A stretch of 64,000 bases of DNA, taken from sequence record OR455461.1; one strand, written 5' to 3'. Positions 38,636-40,829 of the stretch are shown piece after piece. Below the pieces are notes generated by a model, which did no database searches, was not told the DNA's origin, and saw only the letters and a program-made list of their open reading frames with translations. Each line of letters starts with the position of its first letter. Position 1 is the first letter of the stretch. The position numbers were made by a program, and so were the translations under genes. This stretch comes from Staphylococcus phage AH12.

Positions 38636-38781
38636 GTTATTCTAAATATTATTATTTAGCTAGACTATATCATTACCATTTAAGGTAGAATATATTTAGT
38701 CGTTGAACACTAATTAAAGTGATGCTGATTAATTTAATAATCTCTCAGCAATTAATATTCTTTACATTTATACATTTCTAT
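38636..38781 (-). ncRNA. compact group I intron (beta #1, core 38664-38761)
   Basis: P/Q/R/S core, the P3 pairing GAATA/TATTC and a P9 hairpin CTAAAT..ATTTAG. Confidence 0.55.
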
Positions 38782-38834
38782 ATAACGGAGCCTTTTATTT
38801 GACTCTGAGAGGATTGTTGTTTATTCTTGATCTG
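38782..38834 (-). CDS. proposed micro-exon (...KQQSSQSQIKGSVI) of beta #1
   Basis: Inference. The frame QIKNKQQSSQSQIKGSVI, joined to the terminal exon through a split ATC codon, gives QIKGSVIGEME, which aligns to QFGGQRFGEME. The segment is locally richer in G+C than the flanking intron sequence. Confidence 0.35.
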
Positions 38835-39037
38835 TAAAACTTAGACATTTATATTAACTATATTTATTTAAAAAATAGATTAGACTATATCATTACCATT
38901 TAAGGTAGAATATATTTAGTCGTTGAACCTCTTATTTGAGGATGCTGATTAATTCAATAATCTCTCAGCAATTAATATTCTTTACATACATATTATTTCT
39001 AATACATGGGACACAAAATTTATCCGGTGTTCTTGTG
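38835..39037 (-). ncRNA. compact group I intron (beta #1, core 38882-38980)
   Basis: P/Q/R/S core with the hairpin variant TACCATTTAAGGTA. Confidence 0.5.
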
Positions 39038-39060
39038 GGAATACCACTGTAATTATTAAA
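39038..39060 (-). CDS. proposed micro-exon (..YSHKNTG) of beta #1
   Basis: Inference. TATTCCCACAAGAACACCGGAT encodes YSHKNTG, comparable to SRSMKTG in beta #2 and HARSTG in bacterial beta. Confidence 0.3.
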
Positions 39061-39262
39061 GTCAATTGATTTTGCACTTAATTTCTATTTTATTAATCTT
39101 TATAATATAATTTATAAAGTATAGACTATATCTTCATTCTATATTATAGAAGAACTATATTTAGTCGTTGAACACTATTTAAAGTGATGCTGATTATTTT
39201 ATTACTCTCAGCAATTAATAATTTAATAATTCTTTAATTTATATAAAGAACGGCAAATAATT
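39061..39262 (-). ncRNA. compact group I intron (beta #1, core 39122-39225)
   Basis: P/Q/R/S core. P8 hairpin variant CTTC...GAAG with compensatory substitutions. P9 hairpin CTTTATAAattataTTATAAAG. Confidence 0.5.
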
Positions 39263-39283
39263 TACCTGATGGTTCATGTTTTA

Positions 39284-40829
39284 CGAATCTATATTAACTT
39301 CATATAGATCCCAGACTATATCTTAAAGTCTATGAAGACCTTTCACTTATTTAGTCGTTGAAGCTCTTTAATTATATTTTCAATCTCTTTTAAATGGTCT
39401 TGTTTATAGTTTATTCTATAAAGAGGAATATTTTTATTGATACAATATTCATCTTTCATTTTATCTTTCATTCTAATCTCTTCTAATTTTTCTTTAGGAA
39501 ATCTGCTACTAGGATTTTTCCTAAAATGCTGTTCACCATCATATTCAATTAGTACATTATAATCTACTAAATAAAAATCAAATCTTAAATTTTGATTTAT
39601 TTTTAGATCTTCAAATGTTTTCTCAAACTCAACATTTGTATTCGTATCAATTAAATATTTTTCTATTTGACGGTGAGCTAATGAATTTGCATACTGTTTT
39701 GCACAAAAAGGACATTTATTTATAGAATCTTTAAAATATTCTGCTTTCATTTTAAAATTATTTCCACATTTTTTATGATGAAAATTGTAAATATTTTTAG
39801 TTCCCTTGAATTCATTATCTAGTATTAAATATTCATTTGAATTAAATTTTTTATTACATATTTCTAGAAATTCTTTTTTTGTTAAGAATTTATTCTCTAA
39901 GCTACAATGTGGACATTTATAATCATTATTTAACATATTATTTGCTAGCATATTAAAACTTCTGTTACATTTTTTATGAAGGAAATTATGTTTAGTTTTA
40001 ATTCCTTTAAACTTGTCATCTAATAATTCGTAATCATCATAATCTTTTCTATTTTCTTTCATTTTTTCATTAAATGACTTTTTATCGTATTTTAATAATT
40101 TAATTTTATCACAATTAGGACAAATAATAACATTATTTAAAAAACTTCCTCCGGTCATTTCAAATTCAGTTCCACAATCATCATGTTTAAATTTTGTTAT
40201 TTTAGAGAATCCATTATACTTTCCTAAAATAGAATACCCACTTATATTTTTCTCTTTTTTAGCCTTTTCTAAAAACTCTTCATTACTATATTTCACAGAG
40301 AAACAACAATTTGGGCATCGATTCATATTGTATAAAAATTCAGAACCTTTCATTGTAAAATATTTTCCACATTCTTCATGGTAAAACTTATGGTGTTTTT
40401 TAGTACTTTTAAAATCATCAATTAATTTATAACCTTCAGTACTTTTTCTTTTGTTTGCTTCTTCCATAAAAGTTTTATTATTGTATTTTAAACCATTTTC
40501 ACATTTAGGACATCTCTTAGAGTAATCTAAAAAACCTCTACCTGTCATTTCAAATTCAGTTCCACAATCAACATGTAATATTTTATGATTAAATTTATAA
40601 CCTTTATACTCTTCTAATAATTCATAATTTCCAATATTCTTTTCTTTTATTTTATTCATATATTCTTCATGTGTTAATTTTACCATTTATTTCCTCACCT
40701 TTCCAGACCAATAGAAAGGATTTTAATATAATTAAATTAGCATGCTGATTACTTTTAAAGCTTCTCAGCAATTAAAGTGATTTTTCATTTATTGTTACCA
40801 ATATAAGGAAGCTAAAACATAATTTGTCT
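39284..40829 (-). ncRNA. group I intron with a homing-endonuclease ORF in the P6 loop (beta #1)
   Basis: P AATTGCTGAG and Q AATCAGCATG lie at about 40745-40785. The ORF 39343-40686 follows Q. The ORF's stop codon lies inside the R element (CAACGACTAAATAAGTGA). S GATATAGTCTGG and a P9 hairpin follow at about 39290-39330. Confidence 0.55.
39343..40686 (-). CDS. intron-encoded homing endonuclease-like protein: 5 tandem Zn-ribbon modules + C-terminal PD-(D/E)xK (DUF559/Vsr-like) nuclease domain
   Basis: Five repeats of the pattern ...F.H..CG..F.M....FL....CP.C. C-terminal ...RFDFYLVDYNVLIEYDGEQHFR. Own ribosome-binding site AGGTGAGG. Embedded in the intron. Confidence 0.55.
   Translation of the reverse strand: MVKLTHEEYMNKIKEKNIGNYELLEEYKGYKFNHKILHVDCGTEFEMTGRGFLDYSKRCPKCENGLKYNNKTFMEEANKRKSTEGYKLIDDFKSTKKHHKFYHEECGKYFTMKGSEFLYNMNRCPNCCFSVKYSNEEFLEKAKKEKNISGYSILGKYNGFSKITKFKHDDCGTEFEMTGGSFLNNVIICPNCDKIKLLKYDKKSFNEKMKENRKDYDDYELLDDKFKGIKTKHNFLHKKCNRSFNMLANNMLNNDYKCPHCSLENKFLTKKEFLEICNKKFNSNEYLILDNEFKGTKNIYNFHHKKCGNNFKMKAEYFKDSINKCPFCAKQYANSLAHRQIEKYLIDTNTNVEFEKTFEDLKINQNLRFDFYLVDYNVLIEYDGEQHFRKNPSSRFPKEKLEEIRMKDKMKDEYCINKNIPLYRINYKQDHLKEIENIIKELQRLNK

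What the first reader, a model, noticed from the sequence alone, without database searches (positions are those of the whole stretch)
38636..40829. A 2.2-kb gap in RNAP beta gene #1 contains four consecutive introns, one with a homing-endonuclease ORF in P6, and coding micro-exons between them
Gene #1 runs from exon C, which ends ...MVGDLYHLK (aligning to VGYMYMLKL), to the terminal exon, which begins (F)GEMETTNMM (aligning to FGEMEVWAL). Between them lie four intron cores.
- The first carries a 447-aa ORF inserted between Q and R, the classic P6 position. The ORF's stop codon lies inside the R element.
- The linkers between cores contain short G+C-richer islands whose translations match the missing beta residues.
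- The island at 39038-39060 reads ..YSHKNTG, compared with ARSTG in bacterial beta.
- The island at 38782-38834 reads ..KQQSSQSQIKGSVI. Joined to the terminal exon it gives QIKGSVIGEME, compared with QFGGQRFGEME.
- A further micro-exon at 39226-39283 is unresolved.

With the introns at 42116-42262 and 41403-41537, this one gene carries at least 6 introns in about 4.5 kb.
Basis: partly seen in the sequence, partly recalled or inferred. Interest (0 to 1): 0.85.

Follow-up and report, generated by a model that had tools for sequence, protein, structure and literature searches.

The report
Six mini-introns splitting phage RNAP gene
A Staphylococcus jumbo-phage RNA polymerase gene is cut by six very small self-splicing (group I) introns, four of them packed so tightly that the coding pieces between them are only 20, 63 and 44 bases long; this is real, but a near-identical arrangement is already annotated in the sister phage Machias.

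Summary
The window comes from a Staphylococcus AR9-like jumbo phage, about 95% identical to Machias and PB50. The minus-strand gene at 42814-38249 encodes the C-terminal half of the non-virion RNA polymerase beta subunit.

- **Introns.** There are exactly six group I introns of 168-183 nt, plus one of 1548 nt. The long one carries a 447-aa Vsr-like homing-endonuclease ORF in P6. Four of the six lie in 38634-40831.
- **Micro-exons.** The true ones are 39283-39264 (LKHEPSG), 39084-39022 (KLSAKSIDFNNYSGIPTRTPD) and 38845-38802 (SKFYRSRINNNPLR/V).
- **Spliced product.** It is 712 aa and aligns without junction gaps to the uninterrupted phage S6 protein (83% identity).
- **Junction support.** Sister phages carry empty sites exactly at my junctions. 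Every intron follows a U, ends in G and has its own P1 guide pairing. Core helices covary strongly.
- **Rfam.** It scores these introns at 22-42 bits (one of the short introns gave no match), below its cut-off of 50, so standard scans miss them.
- **Prior knowledge.** GenBank already annotates the Machias gene as a six-piece join. Phage Twort orf142 is a precedent for tandem group I introns around a 23-nt exon.

Verdict: a new member of a known kind, with moderate interest.

The parts
42287..42814 (-). Exon 1 of the nvRNAP beta C-terminal-half gene (starts at the ATG at 42814, ends ...GFTN)
   Evidence: The ORF is listed. The spliced product aligns to S6 from residue 1.
42114..42286 (-). Intron 1 (site a), 173 nt, group I, no ORF
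   Evidence: R1 scores 120.9 bits and Rfam Intron_gpI 21.7 bits. It follows U and ends in G. P1 is GAAU|AAA paired with UUUGUUC, and P2 and P9 hairpins are present. The site is empty in Machias, S6 and SA1.
41546..42113 (-). Exon 2 (EDGIVVSE ... PLVHGS)
41363..41545 (-). Intron 2 (site b), 183 nt, group I, no ORF
   Evidence: R1 scores 110.7 bits and Rfam 42.3 bits. P1 is GGAU paired with GUCC. The junction restores VHGSKISTRYGGKG, compared with S6 VHGSKITTRYGGKG.
40832..41362 (-).
39284..40831 (-). Intron 3 (site c), 1548 nt, group I, with an endonuclease ORF in the P6 loop
   Evidence: R1 hits both halves, 40787-40679 and 39404-39312. P1 is GAAGU paired with GCUUC, and P2 and P9 are present. 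The 5' ribozyme part is 99% identical to the Machias intron at the same site. The site is empty in PB50, MarsHill, Madawaska, S6 and SA1.
39343..40686 (-). 447-aa homing-endonuclease ORF: repeated zinc-ribbon modules plus a C-terminal Vsr-like nuclease domain. An AGGTGAGG ribosome-binding site lies about 8 nt upstream. The last five sense codons overlap the R/P7 element.
   Evidence: - Pfam gives Zn_ribbon_8 and a weak DUF2726 match.
- PHROG 559, 9084 and 7140 match, with E down to 1e-69.
- The AF2 model of the C-terminal domain has pLDDT 88. Its best characterised fold match is Vsr 1cw0, with TM 0.63.
- Invariant residues are RFDF...E.DGEQH...D..K.
39264..39283 (-). Micro-exon 1, 20 nt: (L)KHEPSG
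   Evidence: It matches S6 LKHEPSG. It is contiguous with its neighbours in PB50, S6 and SA1.
39085..39263 (-). Intron 4 (site d), 179 nt, group I, no ORF
   Evidence: R1 scores 85.1 bits. There is no Rfam hit at E<=0.01. P1 is GGU|AAA paired with UUUGCC. Its P3 and P8 differ in sequence from the other introns but still pair.
39022..39084 (-). Micro-exon 2, 63 nt: KLSAKSIDFNNYSGIPTRTPD
   Evidence: It matches S6 KLSAKSLDFNNYSGIPTRTPD.
38846..39021 (-). Intron 5 (site e), 176 nt, group I, no ORF
   Evidence: R1 scores 120.5 bits and Rfam 33.6 bits. P1 is GGAU|A paired with UGUCC. P6 is CCUC/GAGG, fully compensatory relative to CACU/AGUG in intron 6.
38802..38845 (-). Micro-exon 3, 44 nt: SKFYRSRINNNPLR plus two bases of Val
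   Evidence: It matches S6 SKKYLSRINNNPLRI. dN/dS of the micro-exon block is 0.05.
38634..38801 (-). Intron 6 (site f), 168 nt, group I, no ORF
   Evidence: R1 scores 121.4 bits. Rfam Intron_gpI scores 42.4 bits over the full model length, E 5.8e-10 on 196 nt. P1 is GAGU|C paired with GGCUC. It is 99% identical to the Machias intron and 97% to the PB50 intron at the same site.
38249..38633 (-). Terminal exon ((V)GEMETTNMM ... EDSK, stop)

Best explanation
**What it is.** The region is part of one essential gene: the C-terminal half of the non-virion RNA polymerase beta subunit of an AR9-like Staphylococcus jumbo phage. Six compact group I introns interrupt it.

**How it works.**
- Each intron is its own ribozyme. 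It holds the last 3-5 bases of the upstream exon with its own internal guide sequence, forming P1 with a U.G pair at the splice site.
- It has a minimal P2-P9 core and ends in the omega-G.
- After transcription the introns are removed by two transesterifications. The seven exons, including micro-exons of 20, 63 and 44 nt, join into a 712-codon reading frame.

**Why they cluster here.** The four clustered introns sit in the most conserved stretch of beta, which corresponds to E. coli MLK|LNHLVDD|KMHARS...QRF|GEME. This is typical of elements that spread by homing.
- Intron 3 carries the endonuclease that presumably cuts intron-less alleles near site c.
- The ORF-less neighbours, which lie within 127 nt of coding sequence, would be co-converted during repair.

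**Shown:** the exon junctions, the intron fold and its covariation, the endonuclease family, and presence/absence polymorphism among sister phages.

**Inferred:** that splicing is autocatalytic in vivo, that the endonuclease is active, and that the neighbouring introns hitch-hike.
For: **The spliced reading frame is right**
- The phage and the gene were identified.
- The uninterrupted S6 homologue (713 aa) is shown.
- The spliced window product is 712 aa with 590/714 identical residues, and it has no gap at any of the six junctions.
- The 200-nt spliced segment aligns colinearly to S6 and SA1. In PB50, MarsHill, Madawaska, Machias and LY01 the alignment breaks exactly at my junctions.
- The micro-exon block has 29 nucleotide but only 4 amino-acid differences from S6. 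dN/dS is 0.05, and the other frames carry stop codons.
- The micro-exon-encoded segment is conserved in distant homologues.

**The introns are group I introns**
- All six follow a U and end in G.
- Each has its own P1/IGS pairing, a P2 hairpin and a P9 hairpin.
- Rfam Intron_gpI matches the full model length at 42.4, 42.3, 33.6 and 21.7 bits.
- On 29 distinct staphylococcal-phage copies, 90.3% of cells pair and 16 of 23 pairs change on both sides. None of 500 shuffles reaches this, and slid controls give 29-52%.
- On 47 distinct metagenomic copies the figures are 93.3% and 20 of 23.
- P7 is 96.5% paired.

**The ORF is an endonuclease:**

**Independent annotation:** Machias CPT_Machias_266 is a six-piece join with an annotated homing endonuclease. 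Korn et al. describe intron-split RNAP genes in this clade.
Against: - There are no RNA data or splicing assay for this phage, so splicing is inferred.
- No intron reaches the Rfam gathering score of 50 bits, and intron 4 gives no Rfam hit at E<=0.01.
- P5 is only 3-4 A-U/G-U pairs, and the usual peripheral stabilising elements are absent. Autonomous folding at physiological Mg2+ is therefore not guaranteed.
- Introns 5 and 6 have 94% identical cores only 44 nt apart, and introns 2 and 5 use the same GGAU/GUCC P1. Mis-pairing or exon skipping is possible.
- The fold match of the nuclease domain to Vsr is modest (Foldseek E 1.8e-3, TM 0.63). A sequence search of PDB found nothing.
Confidence: 0.88

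Rival explanations
1. The introns are real and are removed, but they are not autonomous ribozymes in vivo. The stripped-down, AU-rich cores would need a phage or host protein (a maturase or chaperone), or low temperature, to fold. Splicing of about 20-30 such introns in essential genes would then gate phage development.
For: - P5 is only 3-4 weak pairs, and there are no P2.1, P5abc, P7.1/7.2 or P9.1 extensions.
- Scores fall below the Rfam threshold.
- One family member, in the virion RNAP beta gene, is 147 nt long and lacks a P8 hairpin.
- Korn et al. report that these phages propagate poorly at 37 C.
Against: - The catalytic core motifs P, Q, R and S are intact and strongly conserved, and all core helices covary.
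- Small bacterial and phage group I introns commonly self-splice in vitro (general knowledge, not tested here).
- Intron-free relatives of the same clade exist (S6, SA1, DC4, PALS_2). Whether they share the temperature phenotype was not checked.
Confidence: 0.2
2. The gene is broken. The pieces are separate ORFs or a decaying pseudogene, the repeats are non-splicing repetitive elements, and the beta function is supplied by separately translated fragments, as the PB50 record annotates them.
For: The PB50 GenBank record lists the pieces as four separate 'non-viral RNA polymerase beta subunit' CDSs. A whole-window Rfam scan at gathering threshold finds no intron.
Against: - Micro-exons of 20, 44 and 63 nt have no start codon and cannot be translated alone.
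- Precise excision restores a frame colinear with S6 at all six sites.
- dN/dS in the micro-exons is 0.05.
- Sister phages have empty-site alleles.
- The group I fold shows covariation and a site-specific P1 in each copy.
Confidence: 0.02
3. One reading: micro-exons read ..YSHKNTG (39038-39060) and ..KQQSSQSQIKGSVI (38782-38834), joined as QIKGSVI-GEME.
For: These stretches are slightly richer in G+C and have a loose resemblance to bacterial ARSTG and QFGGQRFGEME.
Against: - S6 and all homologues read NYSGIPTRTPD and SRINNNPLRIGEME in the other frames.
- The proposed 5' splice site lies inside P2 of intron 6, and the 3' site would follow a C.
Confidence: 0.01
4. The tight tandem arrangement is used for regulated or alternative splicing. 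Exon skipping between near-identical neighbours would yield non-functional or variant beta and so tune RNAP levels.
For: - Twort orf142 shows exon skipping of a 23-nt exon between two similar group I introns (PMC10136302).
- Introns 5 and 6 share 94% core identity across a 44-nt exon.
- Introns 2 and 5 share the same P1.
- Skipping the 63-nt micro-exon would keep the reading frame.
Against: - There are no RNA data.
- The micro-exon residues are under strong purifying selection and conserved family-wide, so skipped products are probably dead ends.
- Intron-free relatives do without any such regulation.
Confidence: 0.1

Closest known systems
Staphylococcus phage Machias nvRNAP beta C-terminal gene (CPT_Machias_266, MW349128.1; Korn et al., bioRxiv 10.1101/2020.12.14.422802)
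   Same: - It is the same gene in a phage about 95% identical in DNA.
- It has introns at sites b, c, d, e and f with the same micro-exons.
- The intron 6 orthologue is 99.4% identical.
- A homing-endonuclease ORF sits in the intron at site c.
   Different: - The window has a sixth intron (site a), shared with PB50 and absent from Machias.
- Its site-c ORF is 447 aa and only 36% identical to the 318-aa Machias ORF, although the flanking ribozyme is 99% identical.
- The Machias exon limits were set by protein alignment only. As far as I could read the paper, it describes no ribozyme structure or intron family.
Staphylococcus phage Twort orf142: three self-splicing group I introns, with a 23-nt exon between introns 2 and 3 (Landthaler and Shub 1999, as summarised in PMC10136302)
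   Same: It has tandem, mutually similar group I introns in one staphylococcal phage gene, separated by a very short exon. That makes inter-intron interference and exon skipping possible.
   Different: - Twort has three introns and one short exon. Here there are six introns, four of them consecutive, and three micro-exons.
- The Twort introns are subgroup IA2. From my own knowledge, not checked here, they are longer and carry P7.1/P7.2 extensions. These introns are 168-183 nt with no peripheral helices.
- Twort splicing was shown experimentally. Splicing here was not.
Group I introns in RNAP subunit genes of jumbo phages (Bacillus phage AR9, Lavysh et al. 2016; the PhiPA3 intron endonuclease discussed in PMC12908238)
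   Same: Self-splicing introns, often with homing endonucleases, sit at conserved motifs of the phage multisubunit RNAP genes.
   Different: AR9's orthologous gene g089 is uninterrupted. The density here, four introns within 127 nt of coding sequence, is much higher. I could not read the AR9 paper.
Vsr-like (PD-(D/E)XK-type) intron-encoded and free-standing phage homing endonucleases with zinc-ribbon DNA-binding repeats (annotated 'VSR homing endonuclease' in Twort-like phages; PHROG 559, 9084, 7140)
   Same: The domain order is the same, and invariant D...E.DGEQH...D..K residues are present. It is located in a group I intron, and relatives sit inside terL and other phage genes.
   Different: No relative in the phage collection is more than 60% identical. 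Activity and target site are unknown.

Membership tests
Group I self-splicing intron | 5' splice site after a U that forms a U.G wobble in P1 with an internal guide sequence complementary to the 5' exon | tested here: met
   All six introns follow U. Minimum-free-energy folds give a P1 of 5-7 bp (6-8 paired positions in intron 3, counting the two outer runs either side of an enclosed inner hairpin). Each pairs the last 3-5 exon bases with a different guide: GUUC, GUCC, GCUUC, GCC, GUCC and GCUC.
Group I self-splicing intron | Terminal guanosine (omega-G) at the 3' splice site | tested here: met
   All six introns end in G at the only position that restores the S6-colinear frame.
Group I self-splicing intron | Conserved core P3-P4-P5-P6-P7-P8 with the P, Q, R, S elements and the P3/P7 pseudoknot | tested here: met
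   - The motifs AAUUGCUGAGA, AAUCAGCA, UUCAACGACUAAAU and GAUAUAGUC are present in every copy.
- Covariation is strong: 90.3% and 93.3% of cells paired, with 16 and 20 of 23 pairs changed on both sides.
- P7 is 96.5% paired.
Group I self-splicing intron | Score at or above the Rfam RF00028 gathering threshold (50 bits) | tested here: not met
   Scores are 42.4, 42.3, 33.6 and 21.7 bits, and intron 4 is not reported. E-values are 5.8e-10 to 5e-3 on short stretches, and the matches span the full model length. This reflects the compact, AU-rich form of the introns, not a missing core element.
Group I self-splicing intron | GTP-dependent self-splicing in vitro, or spliced RNA in vivo | not testable with these tools
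   No RNA data are available. This is inferred from the gene being essential, the frame being restored and purifying selection acting on the micro-exons.
Homing endonuclease (Vsr-like / PD-(D/E)XK-type, intron-encoded) | ORF located in a peripheral loop of the intron with its own translation signals | tested here: met
   The ORF at 40686-39343 starts in the P6 loop, with an AGGTGAGG ribosome-binding site upstream. The ribozyme halves flank it.
Homing endonuclease (Vsr-like / PD-(D/E)XK-type, intron-encoded) | Nuclease domain of the Vsr / restriction-endonuclease-like fold with conserved acidic, His and Lys residues | tested here: inconclusive
   - The AF2 model has pLDDT 88.
- Foldseek finds Vsr 1cw0 with probability 1.00, TM 0.63 and E 1.8e-3, and also 1vsr and TnsA.
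- Invariant residues are D58, E69, D71, H75, D96 and K99.
- Pfam gives only a weak DUF2726 match, and the PDB sequence search found nothing.
Homing endonuclease (Vsr-like / PD-(D/E)XK-type, intron-encoded) | Cleaves the intron-less allele and promotes gene conversion | not testable with these tools
   The only support is circumstantial. Sites c, d and e are all filled (window, Machias, LY01) or all empty (PB50, MarsHill, Madawaska, S6, SA1).
phiKZ/AR9-type non-virion RNAP beta subunit, C-terminal half | Homology over the full length to the Rpb2 domain-6 region, including the conserved motifs, and synteny with AR9 | tested here: met
   There are 208 homologues with PF00562. The product is 83% identical to S6. 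The upstream UvsX-like gene matches the arrangement in AR9, Machias and S6.

The most novel reading that the evidence does not exclude
These ORF-less introns of about 147-183 nt may form a single family that has recently burst within some staphylococcal jumbo-phage genomes by moving to new sites.

**Copy number.** By blastn, the family has about 20-33 copies in Machias, PB50 and LY01, and none in S6, SA1, DC4 or PALS_2.

**Signs of moving to new sites**
- The catalytic core stays 88-94% identical between different sites, while only the P1 guide and P9 differ.
- The same site carries different lineages in different phages.
- One lineage sits at different sites in different phages: LY01 site e is 93% identical to MarsHill site b.

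This pattern is what RNA-level retargeting (reverse splicing followed by reverse transcription) would leave. These phages encode a retron-like reverse transcriptase. The result is arrays of tandem ribozymes with micro-exons as short as 6 nt, whose splicing must be ordered or co-transcriptional.
Probability: 0.25. Interest if true: 0.75.

Novelty: new member of a known kind. Interest (0 to 1): 0.45.

Why it matters
**Annotation.** Standard tools miss these introns (Rfam gathering scan: zero hits). Public records of sister phages therefore list essential RNAP genes as fragments (PB50) or truncate them (Machias beta'-N). The exact junctions given here allow correct proteins to be written.

**Biology.** Four ribozymes within 127 nt of coding sequence, and six in a 2.1-kb gene, is among the densest group I intron packings I know of in a phage. 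It is a natural test bed for three questions:
- How do tandem, near-identical ribozymes avoid mis-pairing and exon skipping?
- How small can a working group I core be?
- How do endonuclease-less introns reach new sites? [quoted passage not shown]

The clade offers matched intron-rich and intron-free phages for crosses.

Tried and rejected
- **Rfam, whole window.** The gathering scan and a 6-kb E-value scan found no intron. Only stretches under 1 kb let RF00028 through the filters.
- **My own first-pass exon model.** I built it by eye (KHEPSG|WYSHKNTG|F...) and it failed to give an open frame. I dropped it once the uninterrupted S6 gene was found.
- **MAFFT alignment of the full introns.** It was unreliable in P1, P2 and P9. 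I modelled only the core and treated P1, P2 and P9 intron by intron.
- **My first structure string.** It had the wrong length. P7 had to be left out of the covariance model because of the pseudoknot, and I counted it separately.
- **PDB sequence search with the endonuclease.** It gave only chance-level hits.
- **Machias spliced protein.** It was not retrievable from the protein database, so I could not compare its annotated junctions base by base.
- **Lavysh et al. 2016 (AR9).** The paper is not held.
- **Smallest known group I intron.** A phrase search gave nothing usable, so I make no 'smallest' claim.
- **Mislabelled ORF.** I first labelled the 58341-60026 ORF as gyrase B. tblastn shows it is the virion RNAP beta subunit.
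Full report
**Where the window comes from.** The DNA is 20-30% G+C. A tblastn search with exon C, and a megablast search with the whole locus, hit only jumbo Staphylococcus phages of the AR9-like MarsHill clade. 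The closest are Machias (MW349128) and vB_StaM_PB50 (OR770614), at about 95% nucleotide identity. More distant hits are Listeria, Yersinia and Bacillus (AR9/PBS1) jumbo phages. The minus-strand gene between 42814 and 38249 is annotated in those records as the C-terminal half of the non-virion RNA polymerase beta subunit. As in AR9, Machias and S6, it lies downstream of a UvsX-like recombinase gene.

- The four classical group I core elements recur on the minus strand far above chance. TTGCTGAG...TCAGCA occurs 9 times against 0.02 expected. TTCAACGACTAAAT occurs 13 times against 1.5 expected. GATATAGTC occurs 10 times against 0.6 expected.
- Six sets lie in this gene.
- A covariance model of the core (R1) recovers them at 38661-38767, 38881-38987 and 39122-39230, and in two halves at 39312-39404 and 40679-40787 either side of the 447-aa ORF. 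It also recovers the two upstream introns.

**The exons.** Phage S6 (LC680885, S6_1980) has an uninterrupted 713-aa version of the gene. Between MVGDLYHLK and GEME it reads LKHEPSGKLSAKSLDFNNYSGIPTRTPDSKKYLSRINNNPLRI.

The window encodes the same string in three pieces:
- 39283-39264, 20 nt: (L)KHEPSG
- 39084-39022, 63 nt: KLSAKSIDFNNYSGIPTRTPD
- 38845-38802, 44 nt: SKFYRSRINNNPLR plus two bases of Val

With the other junctions (42287|42113, 41546|41362, 40832|39283 and 38802|38633), the seven exons give a 712-codon frame. It is 83% identical to S6 and has no gap at any junction.

Those frames carry stop codons. My frame shows 29 nucleotide but only 4 amino-acid differences from S6, with dN/dS 0.05. 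The same peptide segment is recognisable in homologues as low as 30% identity. It corresponds to E. coli LNHLVDDKMHARS...RFGEME (E. coli sequence from my own knowledge).

**Independent check of the junctions.** The 200-nt spliced segment aligns colinearly to S6 and SA1.
- In PB50, MarsHill and Madawaska it breaks only at site f.
- In Machias and LY01 it breaks at all four sites.
- In every case the break falls at my junctions, to within the few bases repeated at the intron ends.

So intron-plus and intron-minus alleles of each site coexist among sister phages. Site a is filled only in the window and PB50. Site b is filled in all except S6 and SA1.

**Are they group I introns?**
- All six follow a U and end in G.
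- Each folds a P1 in which the last 3-5 exon bases, including the U, pair with a guide just upstream of P2. The guide differs from site to site as the exon does: GAAU/GUUC, GGAU/GUCC, GAAGU/GCUUC, GGU/GCC, GGAU/GUCC and GAGU/GCUC.
- P2 (four of the six introns with a GAAA loop) and P9 hairpins follow.
- Rfam's Intron_gpI model aligns over its full length, from P1 to P9, to introns 6, 2, 5 and 1 at 42.4, 42.3, 33.6 and 21.7 bits (E 5.8e-10 to 5e-3). It never reaches the 50-bit cut-off, and only appears when less than 1 kb is searched.
- Covariation is strong on 29 distinct copies from the window and six related phages. 90.3% of cells pair, 16 of 23 pairs change on both sides, 0 of 500 shuffles reach this, and slid controls give 29-52%.
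- Covariation is also strong on 47 distinct copies from metagenomic jumbo-phage contigs (93.3% paired; 20 of 23 pairs).
- P7, the pseudoknot partner, is nearly invariant and 96.5% paired.
- The introns are very compact at 168-183 nt. P5 has 3-4 pairs, P6 has 4, P8 has 3-7, and there are no peripheral extensions.

**The ORF.** Intron 3 (40831-39284, 1548 nt) holds a 447-aa ORF in the P6 loop.
- The ORF has a ribosome-binding site upstream. Its last five sense codons run through R/P7, and its stop codon lies in P3'.
- It consists of about five zinc-ribbon modules and a C-terminal nuclease domain.
- It matches PHROG families of homing or intron-encoded endonucleases, with E down to 1e-69.
- It has hundreds of relatives in Firmicutes phages, several inside terL. 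Some are annotated 'VSR homing endonuclease'.
- The C-terminal domain has invariant RFDF...E.DGEQH...D..K residues and models confidently (pLDDT 88). Its best characterised structural neighbour is the Vsr endonuclease (TM 0.63), at a modest E-value.
- The Machias intron at the same site has a 99% identical 5' ribozyme part and the same last ~25 codons. Its ORF, however, is 318 aa and only 36% identical. The endonuclease body has therefore been exchanged inside a conserved intron.

**How it most likely works.** The pre-mRNA carries six independent ribozymes. Each recognises its own 5' exon through P1 and is excised, and the exons join to give a normal beta C-terminal half.
- The cluster sits in the most conserved part of beta, the usual habitat of homing elements.
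- Sites c, d and e are all filled or all empty in every genome examined. This fits co-conversion with the endonuclease-bearing intron. That step is an inference.
- Introns 5 and 6 share a 94% identical core across a 44-nt exon, and introns 2 and 5 use the same P1. Hybrid folding and exon skipping, seen experimentally in Twort orf142 (PMC10136302), is therefore a real risk here.
- Co-transcriptional folding probably limits that risk (inference).

**What is already known.**
- GenBank gives the Machias gene as a join of six pieces with a homing endonuclease inside.
- Korn et al. state that RNAP and other genes of these phages are split by introns, with exon numbers predicted from protein alignment.
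- Twort orf142 is a staphylococcal-phage precedent for tandem group I introns around a 23-nt exon.
- Intron-split RNAP genes are known from AR9 and PhiPA3-type phages.

The finding is therefore a new member of a known kind: one more intron than Machias and a different endonuclease. It is not a new phenomenon.

**What seems not to have been described,** as far as I could read:
- The ribozyme family itself, and the fact that it is invisible to Rfam. The DC4 paper used Rfam to look for introns.
- Its copy number. blastn with intron 6 finds 29 places in Machias, 21 in PB50, 33 in LY01, 10-12 in MarsHill and Madawaska, and none in S6, SA1, DC4 or PALS_2.
- Its modular evolution. Cores at different sites in one genome are 84-93% identical by the model-fitted alignment and 88-94% by pairwise alignment, while the P1/P2 and P9 segments are 48-70% identical. 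Introns at the same site in different phages are only 67-81% identical. LY01 site e is 93% identical to MarsHill site b.

This pattern fits movement to new sites with a change of guide sequence, or core exchange between copies. The review PMC3984707 notes that reverse-splicing mobility lacks direct experimental evidence. These phages encode a retron-like reverse transcriptase. I rate the retargeting reading as possible but unproven.

**Scores.**
- Confidence is 0.88 that these are group I introns spliced at the stated junctions.
- Interest is 0.45. The case is striking and useful for annotation and ribozyme biology, but the core arrangement is already in a public record and has a Twort precedent.

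Noticed in passing
window 23022-22655 (minus strand); micro-exon 22840-22835: The nvRNAP beta'-N gene (ORF 24120-22999) is followed by two tandem copies of the same intron family (23022-22841 and 22834-22655), separated by a 6-nt micro-exon, GCCGAT.
- This micro-exon encodes the Ala-Asp of the catalytic ADYDGD motif.
- The uninterrupted S6 gene reads GMG-AD-YDGDTLNII, which confirms the junctions.
- The Machias GenBank CDS stops at the first intron, so the downstream exons are unannotated there.
   Followed up: partly
window 58354-57748 (minus strand): The virion RNAP beta gene (ORF 60026-58341; identified) carries three more family members in the homologous conserved region: 58354-58208 (147 nt), 58189-58011 and 57927-57748. 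The exons between them are 18 nt and 83 nt.
- A provisional join is in frame...PVGYLHVKRLYEVIVQQ...MKTGQLSGADKVASVSNMEAS....
- Only the first junction is confirmed by S6.
- The 147-nt copy has no P8 hairpin.
   Followed up: partly
L131 (S6, LC680885 191370-192100), from about position 270 onward: In S6, which lacks this mini-intron family, the virion RNAP beta ORF also ends shortly after PVGYLHVKRL. A long non-coding, structured-looking stretch follows, so a different insert may occupy that region.
   Followed up: no
public phage genomes: A blastn search with intron 6 finds the family at 29 places in Machias, 21 in PB50, 33 in LY01, 10 in MarsHill and 12 in Madawaska. It finds none in S6, SA1, DC4 or PALS_2. 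This is a large expansion limited to some lineages.
   Followed up: partly
IMG/VR loci L018, L019, L034, L041, L044, L053, L071 and others: Compact cores of the same type (100-125 nt from P3 to P7') are common in low-G+C metagenomic contigs of 200-400 kb.
- They often occur in clusters. For example, L044 has 7 hits between 4828 and 7705, and L053 has 6 hits between 1283 and 4207.
- Beta-like ORFs in L018 and L019 break off at S6 residues 415 and 374, at or close to the site-b motif, and an R1 core hit follows within 40 nt (L018) or about 320 nt (L019).
- Beta-like ORFs in L036, L062, L082 and L105 also end at about residue 371, but the nearest R1 hit lies more than 1 kb away.
   Followed up: partly
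window 40686-39343 compared with L002 2491-3447: The endonuclease ORF has been exchanged within a conserved intron.
- The window and Machias share a 99% identical 5' ribozyme part and the same last ~25 codons.
- The ORF bodies are 447 aa and 318 aa and are only 36% identical.
- LY01 has an ORF-less intron at the same site.
   Followed up: partly
window 41546/41545 and 39022/39021: Introns 2 and 5 use the same splice-site pairing, exon GGAU with guide GUCC. Each could in principle act on the other's 5' splice site.
   Followed up: no
window 63727-60173 (minus strand): A 1184-aa gyrase A-like ORF has a large internal insert bounded by ...AASRYC and HN-T..., which looks like an intein. Korn et al. 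describe a GyrA intein in MarsHill.
   Followed up: no
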